DNA of 64,000 nt from a virus (IMGVR_UViG_3300035696_000002); one strand, 5' to 3'; counted from the stretch's first letter, positions 27,283 through 35,440 are shown. Notes: generated by a model from the letters alone, not told the origin. A program made the numbers and translations.

Positions 27283-27356
27283 TGGCTGCCCCCCAAGGAT
27301 TCGAACCTCGCTTTCCTGATTCAGAGTCAGGCGTCCTACCGCTAGACGACAGGGCA
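27283..27356 (-). tRNA. tRNA-Gln(CUG)
   Basis: Cloverleaf TGCCCTG...CTGA-CTCTGAA-TCAG...TTCGAAT...GCCA. Confidence 0.9.
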
Positions 27357-27361
27357 AAATT

Positions 27362-27435
27362 TGGCTGGGTCGGAGCGATTCGAACGCCCATAGACTGATT
27401 CAAAGTCAGCCGTCCTGCCGTTAGACGACAACCCA
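27362..27435 (-). tRNA. tRNA-Gln(UUG)
   Basis: Cloverleaf, loop CTTTGAA, encoded CCA. Confidence 0.9.
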
Positions 27436-27439
27436 AAAA

Positions 27440-27516
27440 TGGCACCGGGTGATGGGTACGATCCACCATCATACGGGTCAAAGCCGTAGGCCTTCTTCCG
27501 TTTAGGCGAACCCGGT
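27440..27516 (-). tRNA. tRNA-Gln(UUG), atypical T-loop
   Basis: ACCGGGT/ACCCGGT acceptor, TACGG-CTTTGAC-CCGTA, T-loop ATCGTAC, G-CCA. Confidence 0.75.
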
Positions 27517-27521
27517 AAGTT

Positions 27522-27607
27522 TGGAGCCGATGGAGGGATTCGAACCCCCGTGGGATTTCTCCGGCAGTTTACAAAACTGCTGCAATCGACCACTATGCGA
27601 CATCGGC
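27522..27607 (-). tRNA. tRNA-Thr(UGU) with long variable arm
   Basis: GCAGT-TTTGTAA-ACTGC; variable arm CGGA-GAAA-TCCCAC; G1-C72, C2-G71, U73. Confidence 0.8.
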
Positions 27608-27611
27608 AAAT

Positions 27612-27884
27612 CTAAGCTCTTCGTGCGAACCCGGTCACGACCACGGGTTTTGCTTTCGGTTCTGGCGGATTGTCGATCACCCACGCCAGATGGGCTGCAA
27701 ATAATTTTTCGTATTCGGCCTTGAGGGCATTTCCCTCGTCGATCATCGCCTGATCGTTGGCTTTGATGCCAGCGGCCAATTTTCGGAGGAAGCTACGCCG
27801 TGCTTCCAGTACCTTGGAATTCTGATACAGCAAGTCAACCTGCTCGTCAGACAAAGGCAATTGCCGGGTTCTCCCTAGCAGCAC
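27612..27884 (-). CDS. Small hypothetical protein inside tRNA operon
   Basis: ORF track; TAG stop 4 nt before tRNA-Thr. Confidence 0.45.
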   Translation of the reverse strand: MLLGRTRQLPLSDEQVDLLYQNSKVLEARRSFLRKLAAGIKANDQAMIDEGNALKAEYEKLFAAHLAWVIDNPPEPKAKPVVVTGFARRA

Positions 27885-28189
27885 ACCCCGTTCATCGCCG
27901 GGCCTGAGTTATCGTAGCCGCAGCGATCATCCCAACAGGCCTTGCACCTTGCGGAGCCGGGGCCGGGTTGAGTGGGTGTCCCACAATCAATGCAAACGGA
28001 AGTCTGCAATCGCGGGACGTAACATCCGGGACACGGAACACTCTCGTACCACTCGATCATTTCCTTCACCCACTGCTCTTTCGTCTTGCCCAACTTCGCG
28101 AACAACTCGGGCTTGTAGCGTGGATGATCGAAACTGGTAATCACCTGCACGTGCCCGCAACGATGCTTCACTTCCATCTTCTCGTTCAT
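27875..28189 (-). CDS. Cys-rich hypothetical protein inside tRNA operon
   Basis: CGH...CPGC, CIDC, CKAC; ATGA overlap. Confidence 0.5.
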   Translation of the reverse strand: MNEKMEVKHRCGHVQVITSFDHPRYKPELFAKLGKTKEQWVKEMIEWYESVPCPGCYVPRLQTSVCIDCGTPTQPGPGSARCKACWDDRCGYDNSGPAMNGVCC

Positions 28190-28380
28190 GACAACCTTTC
28201 AATAGCCGTTAGGATGTTCTGTTCCTGCTCCACCAAAGCCGCCGCCCAGCCCTTCAAATTCTGCTTTGCTCGGGCACCTGCGAGTGTGTTGCGTGTCATC
28301 TGCAACTCGCTCTGGTAGTGTCTCAACAATACGACCCGCACTTCCGGGTCACTCAGATCATAATACTCGTATGCTTTCAT
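28186..28380 (-). CDS. Small hypothetical protein
   Basis: ORF track; starts just after tRNA-Thr(GGU). Confidence 0.4.
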   Translation of the reverse strand: MKAYEYYDLSDPEVRVVLLRHYQSELQMTRNTLAGARAKQNLKGWAAALVEQEQNILTAIERLS

Positions 28381-32614: not shown

Positions 32615-32943
32615 ACAGTTTCCTCCTTCCACAAACGATAGTTAGATAGAACTTTTCGCTGCTCCTGCGAGAGCGGTACCGTGGCCACGGCGGACAGGCC
32701 CATGTTGTCGTCAGGCTCATAGAACACTTGATGGCCGATGTCATTGGTTTGGAGTTTCTGAACGACACGGAAAAGTGCGTTCTTATCGGGCACGCCGATG
32801 AGGACTAGATATGGTATTTCGTGGAAATCTTTAGGAAGGCGTCTGGCTACCTCAAAGGTAGCATGGTTGGACTGCACAATTTGCTGGGCCAGACTGATGT
32901 CTTGCCGAACAAACACGTAAAAGTAGGGTTGAACCTAGAGCAT
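32611..32943 (-). CDS. Pth2-like (peptidyl-tRNA hydrolase II fold) protein with in-frame TAG at codon 3
   Basis: YVFVRQDIS..QQIVQSNHA...FYEPD...SAVAT pattern; ATG CTC TAG GTT CAA CCC TAC TTT TAC GTG in frame, with GAGAGAGG RBS 9 nt before ATG 32943. Confidence 0.72.
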
Positions 32944-32963
32944 TGCTTTTTGCCTCTCTCAGT

Positions 32964-32992
32964 ACAATACTGCAAAGTCAACAAATTTGCAA
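32964..32992 (-). promoter_or_regulatory. Sigma70-like promoter of the Pth/tRNA-like operon
   Basis: TTGCAA-17 nt-TATTGT. Confidence 0.6.
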
Positions 32993-32995
32993 TTA

Positions 32996-34282
32996 TTATT
33001 TTTTGAAAATTCGATCCGGCCACGCATCGAGACCCCGGATCGCGATCTTTTCTTCCAATTCTTGGACTAGGTCGGCAACCTCCCGGTCGGTGCCACAAGC
33101 CTCTTTGACCAGCAGGAGGGCCGCATATTCCATGTTTTGCAGCTTCCGGTGCGAATTCAGATCGGTGACAGTCACGTTGTCAGTCGTATCGTGGATTCTC
33201 GTCAGAACTTCCAGAGCCCGGCGAATTATGTTCTCACCCATGACGAACCTGCCAGTCCTCAATGTAGGGAACCAGTTCACACTCGTCCCCGTCAAACTCT
33301 TCCTCAACCAGCGTTTCGATATCGGAATCGAACGTGGCCATGTCAACGGCAACGACCTCAGGCAGATCGAACATGTCGTACCCGTTGTCTGTCGCGTTGT
33401 CTAACGCTTCATCGACCAACGCCTGAATGCCGTCGTCCATTACGCCTTCGCCGCCGTTTCCTTTGGAGCAACCGGAACCTTCATCGTCGAGGTGCCCGGC
33501 GTCTTCTTCACCCACTCACGCTTCACCTTGGGTGCTTTGCGTGGCAGGTTGTGCATGTGGTTTGCTGCATAGCAATTCTTGCAGCTAAAATAGACATCGG
33601 CATTGTAATTGCCGTTGGAGCCGTGGCACAAACAACCGCAATTATGATTTCTCGCCATCTTCGTTCCTCGTAAATTCACCTTTCAATTCTTTGTGGAAAA
33701 TGGTGCCCCACTGTTCCTGAGTGACCCAGCCATCTTCCCAGACTGGAGCATTTCGCCAACTGAGAGTGGATACGTCACCCTCCCAGTATACGCTGCCATC
33801 TTCATTGAGTGCCTTGATATGATCGCCAGTTTTGATCTGGTGCAATCCATCATACGACCAGCTTTCGTGCGGCCACTCTTCGGTCGGAGGTTTGATGAAT
33901 CGTTCGTCCTGAAAAGCGTAGAACGCACCAACACCCTGTTCGCACATCACATGAAAGATACCGCGAAGGGTCATCCAAGTCCCCCAGCGATTCTACCACA
34001 GCCTTCGCATGGGTGCGAAATATGATGCAGGCAGCCGGGATGATCGCAGGGTTGACCGACGCGGTACACTTTCACTGGGATGACCTCAGGATAAATCACT
34101 TGCACGATGTCGGCAGGCACGATGTAGGTTCCTGTCATGTTTCGCCCGGTCGGGCATTGATGGGACATTCCCTCATACACAGGCCAGCCGCACTGCCAGC
34201 ACGGCCCAAGGGATTTCGGATTTCCTGTCGTTGAATCCATAATCAAAAAGCTCCAGCCGTGGAGTTCCATTCGTGTCACCAC
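32996..34282 (-). other. Run of about five small overlapping hypothetical ORFs
   Basis: ORF-track entries ending 32996, 33234, 33440, 33642, 33971 with stop/start overlaps. Confidence 0.5.
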
Positions 34283-34544
34283 GGCTCAGGGGATTTTCCG
34301 GCACTCTACCTCAACATTATTCCCGAAATCAAGGCGGGTCTATTCCTATTTCGACCCAATCGCACCGCTGTCCCCGCGTTTAGGAACGTCCGGGCAGCGA
34401 GGTCATTTCCTCTTCAGACAGTACTCGCGGTAGCTAAATCCGCTTTCCCTTATGAATCTCTGACACGCCCGGCTAAGTCAAGTCGCCCACGGGATTACTA
34501 TCGGAATCGAGAACGTCTGCTGCCCGTGGCCACTGGAGCCTGCT

Positions 34545-34994
34545 CTATAATACTTGAAATTCTACTTTCTCACCACCCTCATCGAAGTGCATACTGCCGT
34601 CGCGGTAAACGTCGAGGTTGGCTTTGATGAAGCGGGAGAGTTCTTCGAGTTCGTTGGCAGCCGGGGCTTCGACGATGCCCTCGGCCATGAGGTTGTTGAG
34701 TTCGCTGACTTGAATCTCGCGGTGATCCGGTTCCCAGCAATCGCCGTGATCGGTCTCGGCAGCCTGCCGGGAGATCGTGCCGCTGGCGTCCACGTAGGTG
34801 CCATCGTCGCGGGTGCAATACGCATGGACGAGGTTGGCCCCGTACTCGGTGGGCTCGTCGAATTCATTCCAATCCTGCGGCTGATCCTCAAGCTGGGCGT
34901 CCCACATGATGGTGATCCGGTAGTTGAGCGTGCGACCTAAGGCGAGAGCAAAAATCTGGCAGCGTCCGTGGATGTACTCTTCGATGGGATACAT
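34545..34994 (-). CDS. Hypothetical protein with Cys-His-Asp (papain/transglutaminase-like) pattern
   Basis: HGRCQIFALAL...LVHAY...YVDASG. Confidence 0.5.
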   Translation of the reverse strand: MYPIEEYIHGRCQIFALALGRTLNYRITIMWDAQLEDQPQDWNEFDEPTEYGANLVHAYCTRDDGTYVDASGTISRQAAETDHGDCWEPDHREIQVSELNNLMAEGIVEAPAANELEELSRFIKANLDVYRDGSMHFDEGGEKVEFQVL

Positions 34995-35126
34995 GGGGTC
35001 TACTTTCTGAAATAAATGTTGCAGCGGTCGAGGAGGCACCAAACAATGAGCAGGGCCAGAATGCAAGCGTCAAGCACGTCACCGCGTGTCCAAGAACCCA
35101 TAAGGTCTCCTACCTATAAAAACGAT

Positions 35127-35150
35127 AAGGGGACTTTTCAGTCCCCTTTT
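35127..35150. terminator. Intrinsic terminator downstream of tmRNA
   Basis: AAGGGGAC-TTTTCA-GTCCCCTTTT. Confidence 0.7.
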
Positions 35151-35440
35151 CTGTTACTAGGCGTTCGTCAAACCCTCGCTGCTTAAACCGCGATTAAGCG
35201 GCAGCAGCCATTGCCAGTGCCTTAGGAGCAGTAGCATTTATTGGTTTTCGTTCCCATTAACGCTGGAACAGTTCCTCGGGTCGGTTGGCTCTATCCTCGC
35301 ATCATTCACCGTCGAAGCCGTGACGCCCCCGTATGGAGGTACCACCAAAATTTTATGGTGGAGGCGGCGGGAGTCGAACCCGCGTCCGCTGACGTGTCTG
35401 GTGCCTTTGCCCGTCTTGCGACGGGTTTTACGACCATGTA
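35150..35440 (-). ncRNA. ssrA: Circularly permuted two-piece tmRNA; tag (A)ATAPKALAMAAAA
   Basis: T-arm GCGGG-TTCGACT-CCCGC plus CGCCTCC-ACCA (ends 35356) precedes GGGGGCG 5' piece (starts 35330); G3-U70; ATAAAT then tag ORF 35235-35194; outer ends approximate. Confidence 0.88.

What the first reader, a model, noticed from the sequence alone, without database searches (positions are those of the whole stretch)
27283..35440. Integrated translation-stress response island
Seen: within 8 kb lie two codon-level sensors (Thr/Gln/Ile attenuator; amber-gated gene), replacement tRNAs, suppressors, at least seven CCA-ended non-decoding RNAs, a Pth2-like gene and tmRNA. Inference: a sense-and-respond counter-defence against translation-targeting abortive infection. 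The small ORFs embedded in the attenuated operon are candidate anti-defence proteins.
Basis: inference. Interest (0 to 1): 0.75.

Follow-up and report, generated by a model that had tools for sequence, protein, structure and literature searches.

The report
Phage translation-upkeep gene neighbourhood
Within 8 kb, a 463-kb uncultured phage carries a ribosome-rescue RNA, stop-codon-reading tRNAs, tRNA look-alikes, a tRNA-hydrolase-like gene locked behind a stop codon, and a tRNA operon switched by a tiny test gene; the parts are real and unusual, but they are separable modules, not one proven defence circuit.

Summary

- **Attenuated tRNA operon:** a Thr/Gln/Ile leader ORF with promoter, terminator and antiterminator precedes eight tRNAs. 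These tRNAs read exactly the leader's Thr, Gln and Ile codons.
- **Suppressors:** there are three tRNA(CUA) genes, but TAG is not recoded across the genome.
- **Gated gene:** one gene has TAG at codon 3. Its predicted fold is Pth2, although Pfam gives no hit.
- **Non-decoding RNAs:** six CCA-ended RNAs are clear. The "seventh" is doubtful.
- **tmRNA:** a permuted two-piece tmRNA is present.

Comparison with about 35 other phage loci changes the interpretation.

- The stop-gated Pth2-like gene travels with a matching suppressor tRNA in 29 of 35 loci. One phage has a TGA gate paired with a tRNA(UCA).
- Mini-tRNAs often lie next to the suppressors, and a permuted tmRNA often lies 0.5-1.7 kb upstream.
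- The attenuated operon is one of six such units spread over this genome. It sits next to the cassette only in close relatives.

So the stretch holds co-located modules with two codon-level switches. The "counter-defence" purpose is untested.

This scan had already noted the attenuators elsewhere in this genome and the gated Pth2 cassette in other genomes. I found no published description of either.

The parts
35103..35479 (-). Permuted two-piece tmRNA gene with its own promoter (35479-35451) and terminator (35148-35127). The tag is ATAPKALAMAAAA. The acceptor stem GGGGGCG/CGCCUCC has G3:U70.
   Evidence: G3:U70 read from the sequence
34246..34545 (-). Conserved ~300-nt structured RNA of unknown function. 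It follows a GTATTAT -10 box and ends in a hairpin plus a T-run.
   Evidence: 72-83% identical in L004 and L006, where no gene is called. 81 predicted pairs, 23 with compensatory changes among 3 sequences. No Rfam match.
32996..34240 (-). Five small tightly packed ORFs (68-110 aa, some Cys-rich) of unknown function.
32935..32992 (-). Promoter-like TTGCAA-17-TATTGT, Shine-Dalgarno GAGAGG, then the mini-ORF ATG CTC TAG (32943-32935) in frame with the Pth2-like ORF. This is the stop-codon gate.
   Evidence: sequence; the gate is conserved in relatives and in distant phages
32611..32934 (-). Body of the Pth2-like protein (107 aa after the TAG).
   Evidence: pLDDT 91.8; Foldseek top 11 hits are Pth2/Bit1; weak profile match to a PDB peptidyl-tRNA hydrolase, E 0.019; 148 homologues, none with a Pfam domain
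31982..32614 (-). 210-aa ORF of unknown function that follows the Pth2-like gene. It is also present in relatives.
31845..31919 (-). Anticodon-less cloverleaf (6-bp arm closed by CUCG) with encoded CCA. Its acceptor stem is nearly the same as that of the phage tRNA-Val(UAC).
31794..31843 (-). 50-nt mini-tRNA A: 7-bp acceptor stem, two GNRA-capped hairpins, then ACCA.
   Evidence: z -4.5; family seen in other phages
31613..31756 (-). ~144-nt CCA-ended RNA with a 6-bp acceptor-like stem, a T-arm (GGAGG-UUCGAAU-CCUC) and a large insert.
   Evidence: the 3' part is conserved in L002 and L006
31528..31601 (-). tRNA-Lys(UUU). A Lys tRNA recurs in this cassette in other phages.
31449..31524 (-). Anticodon-less cloverleaf (7-bp arm closed by GAAA) with encoded CCA.
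31345..31395 (-). 51-nt mini-tRNA B. It has the same acceptor stem as A, and its hairpins differ in sequence but keep their pairing.
30999..31317 (-). Three amber-suppressor tRNAs (CUA) at 31317-31241, 31229-31155 and 31072-30999. Their acceptor stems differ and their discriminators are A, U and G. A 79-nt CCA-ended hairpin lies at 31153-31075.
29727..30892 (-). 324-aa and 63-aa ORFs of unknown function. Relatives carry an AlaRS-core fragment at this position.
29528..29717 (-). Attenuator. Promoter at 29717-29689; leader ORF at 29678-29583; regulatory codons 3-18 at 29672-29625; antiterminator strand at 29622-29603; terminator at 29559-29538 followed by a T-tract.
27283..29517 (-). Attenuated operon: two small ORFs, tRNA-Ile(GAU), a 190-nt conserved spacer RNA, tRNA-Ile(GAU), an ORF, tRNA-Thr(CGU), tRNA-Thr(GGU), three ORFs, tRNA-Thr(UGU), tRNA-Gln(UUG) x2 and tRNA-Gln(CUG).

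Best explanation
The 8-kb stretch is a row of co-oriented but autonomous translation modules. It is not one circuit.

**Module A: attenuated tRNA operon (29717-27283).** This is a leader-peptide attenuator.
- If ribosomes read the leader's Thr, Gln and Ile codons slowly, they stay upstream of codons 19-26.
- That segment then pairs with the 5' arm of the terminator, and RNA polymerase runs on into the tRNA genes for exactly those codons.
- If decoding is fast, the ribosome covers that segment and the terminator forms.
- The result would be negative feedback on the phage's own tRNA supply.

**Module B: gated Pth2-like cassette (32992-30999).** The enzyme can be made in full only when the UAG at codon 3 is read by the amber-suppressor tRNAs encoded downstream. 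Its dose would therefore follow suppressor activity. The anticodon-less tRNAs and mini-tRNAs belong to this cassette, but their role is unknown.

**Module C: two-piece tmRNA, just upstream.**

B and C travel together in many phages. Their most economical joint logic is stop-codon readthrough with built-in damage control: suppressors send ribosomes past stop codons, tmRNA frees ribosomes stranded at mRNA ends, and the hydrolase recycles peptidyl-tRNA.

**Shown versus inferred.** Shown by sequence and comparison: the parts, the alternative pairings, the gate, and the gate/anticodon match. Inferred: every step of expression, charging and enzyme activity.
For: **Attenuator.**
- The leader is unique in the genome.
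- Its nine Thr, three Gln and two Ile codons in codons 3-18 are all read by the eight downstream tRNAs.
- The terminator hairpin is about -18.5 kcal/mol.
- The antiterminator stays intact when the ribosome sits at codons 4-14 and is lost at codons 16-26.
- In five relatives the terminator's 5' arm finds its best partner at leader codons 16-26. Energies are -19 to -24.6 kcal/mol, against -12 to -17.6 for shuffled arms, and the paired sequences differ between relatives.
- The leader peptide and the 1:2 helix are conserved.
- Five other tRNA clusters in the genome carry codon-matched leaders, and four of these have terminators like this one.

**Gate.**
- An in-frame TAG lies 2-8 codons after an ATG in the window, L002, L004/5, L006, L007, L008, L010, L011 and L012.
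- In the IMG/VR survey, TAG is the nearest upstream in-frame stop in 31 of 34 scored loci.
- L032 has a TGA gate and a tRNA(UCA) 489 nt downstream.
- 28 of 35 distinct loci have a tRNA(CUA) within 3 kb downstream on the same strand.
- The residues after the gate (V-Q/H-P-Y-F-Y) are conserved at the protein level, while internal start codons are not.

**Linkage.**
- A permuted tmRNA lies 0.5-1.7 kb upstream on the same strand in loci carrying 11 different tag peptides.
- Mini-tRNAs sit 2-11 nt from suppressors in many loci.
- Tetraloop cloverleafs occur in L002, L012, L014, L020 and L027.

**Literature.**
- Readthrough by nonsense suppressors produces tmRNA substrates, and tmRNA and Pth are physiologically linked (Ueda 2002; Singh and Varshney 2004; both cited in PMC3985003).
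- PTH2 is already known in jumbo phages (PMC7824862).
Against: - There are no expression, charging or activity data.
- The only UAG target found in this genome is the gate itself. "Damage control for readthrough" therefore leaves open why the phage keeps suppressors at all.
- TAG ends 142 of 685 long frames in the phage, so strong suppression should be costly.
- The amino acid carried by each suppressor is unknown.
- Equilibrium folds stand in for co-transcriptional kinetics.
- In the truncated folds made without a ribosome, the antiterminator also forms. Termination in the absence of translation therefore depends on the 1:2 helix forming first.
- The Pth2-like protein misses the Pfam PTH2 threshold, and its catalytic residues were not mapped.
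- L048/L054 are ungated, and L009 shows a frame problem instead of a TAG.
Confidence: 0.55

Rival explanations
1. The whole stretch is one sense-and-respond counter-defence against host systems that attack translation, such as anticodon nucleases, tRNA-modifying toxins and mRNA interferases. On this view there are replacement tRNAs made on demand, decoy tRNA mimics, and tmRNA and Pth2 to clear the debris, and the embedded small ORFs are anti-defence proteins.
For: - The contents fit such a role.
- Iyer et al. read jumbo-phage PTH2 as ribosome rescue after tRNA cleavage (PMC7824862).
- tRNA-Lys(UUU), which from my own knowledge is a target of known anticodon nucleases, recurs in the cassette.
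- RNAs without an anticodon would escape anticodon nucleases while keeping the acceptor end and the elbow.
Against: - Leader-controlled units cover all six tRNA clusters and nearly all amino acids. That looks like general supply control, not a reply to one nuclease.
- The modules have separate promoters and terminators and travel separately in distant phages.
- This reading gives the suppressors no role.
- The small ORFs have no informative match.
- No defence or anti-defence family was identified.
Confidence: 0.25
2. There is no sensing. The stretch is an ordinary tRNA and translation-supplement region of a huge phage. On this view the tRNA mimics are only RNase P/Z processing punctuation, the leader is an incidental small ORF before a leaky terminator, and the TAG merely ends a 2-codon upstream ORF, with the Pth2-like frame starting afresh behind it.
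For: - The mimics sit 2-11 nt from tRNAs, where cleavage at their 5' end would free the neighbouring tRNA.
- In L010 and L012 the codon after the TAG is ATG, and in L011 it is GTG.
Against: - The gate stop codon matches the suppressor anticodon (TGA with UCA).
- Suppressors accompany the gene in 29 of 35 loci.
- In most loci the codon after the gate is GTT, GTA or ATC, not a start codon.
- The leader is a far outlier, and its antiterminator covaries between relatives.
Confidence: 0.12
3. The suppressors serve a wider, stage-specific TAG recoding of phage genes, as in code-15 phages. The Pth2-like gene would then be only one of many recoded genes.
For: Three suppressor genes look like too many for one target. 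Recoded phages with their own suppressor tRNAs are known (bioRxiv 10.1101/2021.08.26.457843).
Against: - Reading TAG as sense lengthens frames no more than reading TAA as sense does.
- Frames that are coding on both sides of a stop number 8 for TAG, 15 for TAA and 20 for TGA.
- Early in-frame stops preceded by ATG plus a Shine-Dalgarno motif number 11 for TAG, 7 for TAA and 17 for TGA, and only the Pth2-like case looks coding.
Confidence: 0.05

Closest known systems
Multivalent leader-peptide attenuators of enterobacterial amino-acid operons (thr leader rich in Thr and Ile; ilv leaders)
   Same: Promoter, short leader ORF with a run of regulatory codons, 1:2, 2:3 and 3:4 alternative helices, and an intrinsic terminator. 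The peptide itself resembles the thr leader in style.
   Different: It controls tRNA genes, not biosynthetic genes. It samples each isoacceptor's codons, so what it would sense is decoding capacity. It is phage-encoded and repeated at six tRNA clusters.
prfB (RF2) autoregulation through an early in-frame UGA
   Same: An early in-frame stop codon acts as a meter of the balance between termination and recoding, and sets the dose of a translation factor.
   Different: Here passage would be by a suppressor tRNA, not a +1 frameshift. The product is a Pth2-like protein, not the release factor. The gate sits at codons 3-9.
Stop-codon-recoded phages with their own suppressor tRNAs (bioRxiv 10.1101/2021.08.26.457843)
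   Same: Phage-encoded tRNA(CUA) or tRNA(UCA) that reads a stop codon inside phage genes.
   Different: There is no genome-wide recoding. One gated gene is physically coupled to the tRNA.
PTH2 genes of jumbo phages (Iyer et al. 2021, PMC7824862)
   Same: An archaeal/eukaryotic-type peptidyl-tRNA hydrolase fold in a large phage.
   Different: It is too divergent for Pfam. That paper does not mention the stop-codon gate or the linked suppressor, mini-tRNAs and tmRNA.
Two-piece (permuted) tmRNA of bacteria
   Same: Rfam RF04321 match above threshold, G3:U70, and a tag reading frame ending in alanines.
   Different: It is phage-encoded, and no SmpB gene was found in the genome.
Acceptor/T-arm minihelices, and the stable non-tRNA RNAs of the phage T4 tRNA region (recalled from my own knowledge, not tested here)
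   Same: Small CCA-ended RNAs that mimic the top half of a tRNA and are encoded among tRNA genes.
   Different: These are natural, conserved 46-60-nt RNAs with an extra hairpin, next to suppressor tRNAs. Alongside them are full cloverleafs whose anticodon loop is replaced by a tetraloop.

Membership tests
Ribosome-mediated (leader-peptide) transcription attenuator | Short translated leader with clustered regulatory codons | tested here: met
   14 of 16 residues are Thr/Gln/Ile; unique among 6,216 small ORFs
Ribosome-mediated (leader-peptide) transcription attenuator | Intrinsic terminator between the leader and the controlled genes | tested here: met
   9-bp G+C-rich stem plus T-tract at 29559-29528
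Ribosome-mediated (leader-peptide) transcription attenuator | Mutually exclusive antiterminator whose upstream strand lies where a ribosome translating on would cover it | tested here: met
   Computed pairing of codons 19-26 with the terminator's 5' arm; conserved with changed sequence in 5 relatives. Equilibrium folds only.
Ribosome-mediated (leader-peptide) transcription attenuator | Readthrough rises when the cognate charged tRNA is scarce | not testable with these tools
   Needs reporter or transcript data
Ribosome-mediated (leader-peptide) transcription attenuator | The controlled genes are amino-acid biosynthesis or aminoacyl-tRNA synthetase genes (the classical cases) | tested here: not met
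   The controlled genes are eight tRNA genes and small ORFs
Pth2 peptidyl-tRNA hydrolase (PF01981) | Pth2 alpha/beta fold | tested here: met
   pLDDT 91.8; top 11 Foldseek hits are Pth2/Bit1, TM 0.73-0.80
Pth2 peptidyl-tRNA hydrolase (PF01981) | Sequence match to the family model | tested here: not met
   No Pfam hit at E 0.1. Only a marginal profile match to one PDB peptidyl-tRNA hydrolase, E 0.019.
Pth2 peptidyl-tRNA hydrolase (PF01981) | Catalytic residues and hydrolase activity on peptidyl-tRNA | tested here: inconclusive
   Nearly invariant R10, D12, H24, D50, D75 and T85 in 41 homologues, but not mapped onto the known active site. Activity cannot be tested here.
Permuted two-piece tmRNA | Covariance-model match, alanine identity pair G3:U70, tag ORF with a stop | tested here: met
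   RF04321 at 73.4 bits against a gathering score of 47; ARAGORN tag; G3:U70 read
Permuted two-piece tmRNA | SmpB partner | tested here: not met
   No PF01668 match in the phage genome. It would have to use the host's SmpB.
Stop-codon-recoded phage (TAG read as sense) | Many phage genes with in-frame TAG | tested here: not met
Amber suppressor tRNA | Cloverleaf with a 7-nt anticodon loop carrying CUA | tested here: met
   Three genes at 52-62 bits on the Rfam tRNA model
Amber suppressor tRNA | Charged, and able to decode UAG in vivo | not testable with these tools
   Indirect support only: gate/anticodon covariation and co-occurrence

The most novel reading that the evidence does not exclude
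The conserved block of tmRNA, stop-gated Pth2-like gene, suppressor tRNAs and anticodon-less or mini-tRNAs is a self-metering readthrough system. On this reading the phage deliberately switches on stop-codon readthrough during infection. The gate codon measures how much readthrough is occurring and scales the rescue enzyme to match. The CCA-ended mimics are the enzyme's dedicated substrates or regulators, not processing debris. Together with attenuator-gated tRNA operons, the phage would be running its own feedback-controlled translation economy.
Probability: 0.2. Interest if true: 0.9.

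Novelty: new variant of a known kind. Interest (0 to 1): 0.76.

Why it matters
Large phages are known to carry tRNAs, tmRNA and PTH2, but these are usually treated as passive supplements. Here the sequence carries two regulatory designs that would make the supply conditional:

- transcription of tRNA genes set by how fast their own codons are read;
- a hydrolase made only when a stop codon is read through by the phage's own suppressor.

If the designs work as read, three points follow.

- They would give phage suppressor tRNAs a concrete target in phages that do not recode their genome.
- They would add two natural classes of non-decoding tRNA mimics.
- They would provide compact, portable parts (a decoding-speed sensor and a suppressor-dependent switch) that can be tested directly in laboratory bacteria.

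I found no published account of either design in the paper library.

Tried and rejected
- **Similarity to known phages:** megablast of the 8 kb against 50,697 phage records found nothing.
- **Pth2-like protein by sequence:** Pfam and a single-sequence PDB search gave nothing. Only the fold and a weak profile match identify it.
- **Unassigned RNAs:** Rfam at E up to 1 gave nothing for the 300-nt RNA, the 190-nt spacer, the 144-nt RNA, the 79-nt RNA or the mini-tRNAs.
- **210-aa ORF:** ESM Atlas gave no usable lead.
- **CCA-ended helices genome-wide:** the scan was swamped by chance hits in coding DNA, so I used only the local scan, which gave 24 hits against 4.35 in shuffles.
- **Suppressor ancestry:** pairwise identity to the other 65 tRNAs is at most 75% with no clear parent, so the amino-acid identity is unresolved.
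- **Mini-tRNA alignment:** MAFFT misplaced the 5' strands. I compared individual folds instead and built no covariance model.
- **190-nt spacer:** rejected as a CCA-ended RNA.
- **Genes seen in relatives:** the AlaRS-core fragment present in relatives is absent from this genome.
- **TAG recoding:** rejected.
- **PMF cluster:** its leader lacks the typical terminator, so not every cluster shows the full design.

Full report
**Setting.** The window is bases 207749-271748 of a 463-kb IMG/VR virus record, with 55% G+C. The record carries 68 tRNA-type genes and one tmRNA. The tRNA genes sit in clusters grouped by amino acid. The finding covers window 27283-35448, and everything of interest lies on the minus strand.

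**The attenuator is real.**
- A sigma-70-like promoter (29717-29689) precedes a 31-codon ORF (29678-29583).
- Codons 3-18 of this ORF hold nine Thr, three Gln and two Ile codons. They use ACA, ACG, ACU, ACC, CAG, CAA and AUU.
- The genes behind it are tRNA-Ile(GAU) x2, tRNA-Thr(CGU, GGU, UGU) and tRNA-Gln(UUG x2, CUG). These are the isoacceptors for those codons.
- Of 6,216 small ATG ORFs in the genome, this is the only one with 14 or more Thr/Gln/Ile residues in 16. The next best has 9. The binomial probability is 1.4e-9.
- A 9-bp G+C-rich hairpin with a T-tract follows at 29559-29528.
- When the transcript is folded only up to the terminator loop, the 5' arm of the terminator pairs with leader codons 19-26. 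This pairing survives with a ribosome placed at codons 4-14 and is lost with a ribosome at codons 16-26. In the full-length fold, the regulatory codons pair with that same segment and the terminator forms.
- Four relatives and a fifth (L009) keep the leader peptide (MKQT.TTRTTTTQ.I...), the 1:2 helix and the terminator.
- In each of the five sequences compared (the window and four relatives), the terminator arm finds its best partner at codons 16-26. Energies are -19 to -24.6 kcal/mol against -12 to -17.6 for shuffled arms, and the paired sequences differ between phages.
- I found codon-matched leaders in front of the other five tRNA clusters of this genome before consulting earlier notes. Four of them have terminators like this one.
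- Limits: these are equilibrium folds, not kinetics, and no expression data exist.

**The suppressors and the gate.**
- Three tRNAs carry CUA in normal 7-nt loops. Their acceptor stems and discriminators differ.
- TAG is not recoded. It ends 142 of 685 long frames. Reading it as sense lengthens frames no more than reading TAA as sense. Coding frames split by TAG are not enriched: 8, against 15 for TAA and 20 for TGA.
- A scan for early in-frame stops found one convincing case, at window 32943. There, a promoter-like TTGCAA-17-TATTGT and GAGAGG precede ATG CTC TAG. The frame then continues as V-Q-P-Y-F-Y-V-F-V-R-Q-D.
- Pfam does not recognise the protein. An AlphaFold model built from 41 homologues has pLDDT 91.8, and its top 11 Foldseek matches in the PDB are all Pth2/Bit1, with TM 0.73-0.80. 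A profile search gives a weak match to a PDB peptidyl-tRNA hydrolase, E 0.019.

**The gate is conserved and matched to its tRNA.**
- Most of the 120 listed homologues were called as starting inside the first strand (MFVRQD, MRQD). That is what a gene caller does when a stop lies just upstream.
- Reading the DNA shows an ATG, one to seven further codons, then TAG in frame in L002, L004/5, L006, L007, L008, L010, L011 and L012.
- In several of the distant loci the -10 box lies 6-7 nt from the ATG, which suggests a leaderless message. A tRNA(CUA) follows within a few hundred bases.
- A scan of IMG/VR gave 42 more loci. In 31 of 34 scored loci, TAG is the nearest upstream in-frame stop.
- L032 has ATG CAT TGA instead and carries a tRNA(UCA) 489 nt downstream.
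- Across 35 distinct loci, 28 have a tRNA(CUA) within 3 kb downstream on the same strand.
- The match between gate codon and anticodon, together with this co-occurrence, is the strongest evidence that the stop is read by the phage's own tRNA and does not merely end an upstream mini-ORF.
- Exceptions: L048/L054 are ungated. L009 has a frame problem in a long-read-style contig.
- Two ungated homologues have Gln exactly where the TAG sits (MHQVHPYFY). This hints at glutamine but proves nothing.

**The non-decoding RNAs.** Between 31919 and 31075 lie six CCA-ended RNAs that cannot decode:
- two cloverleafs whose anticodon arm ends in a tetraloop (CUCG, GAAA);
- two 50/51-nt mini-tRNAs with the same 7-bp acceptor stem and two hairpins that differ in sequence but keep pairing;
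- a 79-nt hairpin;
- a ~144-nt RNA with a T-arm.

A local scan for 7-bp helices followed by N-CCA gave 24 hits against 4.35 in shuffles. The same two kinds recur next to suppressors in other phages. Mini-tRNAs of 46-60 nt occur there, often with a T-loop-like second hairpin. Tetraloop cloverleafs occur in L002, L012, L014, L020 and L027. Close relatives also carry plain 34-35-nt minihelices. The 190-nt spacer between the tRNA-Ile genes is conserved in L006, but its CACCA is not, so I leave it out.

**The tmRNA and other units.**
- The tmRNA is permuted (Rfam 73.4 bits) and has its own promoter and terminator. It has a G3:U70 pair (read). The genome encodes no SmpB.
- A permuted tmRNA lies 0.5-1.7 kb upstream of the Pth2-like gene, on the same strand, in loci carrying 11 different tag peptides. 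This linkage therefore reaches beyond the close family.
- Between the tmRNA and the cassette lies a ~300-nt RNA with its own -10 box and terminator. It is conserved where relatives have no called gene. It has 23 compensatory pairs among three sequences and no Rfam match.
- The small ORFs of the stretch match nothing informative.

**Is it one integrated island?** Partly.
- The tmRNA, gated gene, suppressors and mimics are linked across many phages.
- Published work connects these functions. Suppressor readthrough creates tmRNA substrates, and tmRNA and Pth are physiologically linked (cited in PMC3985003).
- The attenuated Ile/Thr/Gln operon is one of six similar units scattered over 290 kb. It lies beside the cassette only in close relatives, and distant cassettes lack it.
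- The stretch has several promoters and terminators.
- A GGQ/ArfB-like rescue gene lies about 200 kb away.
- Relatives add an AlaRS-core fragment, L7/L12 and a cold-shock protein to the same neighbourhood. This fits a translation-gene neighbourhood that gains and loses parts.
- Nothing tested here links the stretch to a host defence. That part of the reading remains an inference.

**Novelty.** PTH2, tmRNA, tRNA arrays and suppressors in large phages are all known (PMC7824862; bioRxiv 10.1101/2021.08.26.457843). Five literature searches found no account of leader-peptide control of tRNA genes, of a stop-gated Pth2-like gene coupled to its suppressor, or of these tRNA mimics. Earlier notes of this scan describe the attenuators elsewhere in this genome and the gated cassette in other genomes. 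I reached both independently and tested them here.

Noticed in passing
window 34246-34545 (-): A ~300-nt structured RNA with its own -10 box and terminator. It is conserved in relatives where no gene is called, has 23 compensatory pairs among 3 sequences, and has no Rfam family.
   Followed up: partly
window 28857-29048 (-): A 190-nt spacer between the two tRNA-Ile genes. It is about 85% identical in L006 and absent from L002 and L004. It is structured, and its function is unknown.
   Followed up: partly
L032:2970-3570: One phage has a TGA gate (ATG CAT TGA) in front of its Pth2-like gene and an opal-suppressor tRNA(UCA) downstream, instead of TAG with CUA.
   Followed up: yes
L012:10338-10602; L028: Some cassettes carry an ochre suppressor (UUA) as well as an amber suppressor.
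   Followed up: no
window 28495-28710 and 29103-29405 (-): Two embedded ORFs run into the next tRNA gene, and their stop codons lie inside the tRNA. Cutting out the tRNA would leave a message without a stop codon, which is a natural tmRNA substrate. In several distant phages the called Pth2-like frame also runs into the suppressor tRNA.
   Followed up: no
L002:14674-15414, L004:12559-12969, 15931-16716 and 16838-17041, L006:14706-15554: Relatives carry a 246-282-aa AlaRS-core fragment (PF01411) in the same neighbourhood; L004 (and, for the cold-shock gene, L005) also carries an L7/L12 gene and a cold-shock protein gene. This genome has no PF01411 match.
   Followed up: partly
genome 34158-34397 (L055:1384-1821), outside the window: A 145-aa RF-1-domain protein with a GGQ motif, like the rescue factor ArfB, is encoded far from the stretch.
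   Followed up: partly
L004:17166-17199, L006:15597-15630: In relatives, a 34-nt CCA minihelix sits 10 nt upstream of the Thr/Gln/Ile leader's start codon, right after a -10-like box. The leader message may therefore begin with a minihelix.
   Followed up: no
window 27440-27516 (-): This tRNA-Gln(UUG) has an aberrant T-loop and the lowest Rfam tRNA score of the set (45 bits).
   Followed up: no
genome 90309-90376 and 94586-94665, outside the window: A further odd tRNA-like gene with a short anticodon loop, and an 80-nt CCA-ended tRNA-like RNA next to tRNA-Lys(UUU), lie in another tRNA cluster.
   Followed up: no
L009:9900-10000: In this 438-kb relative the Pth2-like frame has no TAG. Its ATG is out of frame, which could be an assembly indel or a different kind of gate.
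   Followed up: no
window 35479, 34565, 32992, 30915 and 29717 (-); genome 62682, 87476 and 340900: The RNA and leader units share a promoter style: TTGACA-like, 17 nt, then GTATTAT, often followed by AGAGAG.
   Followed up: partly
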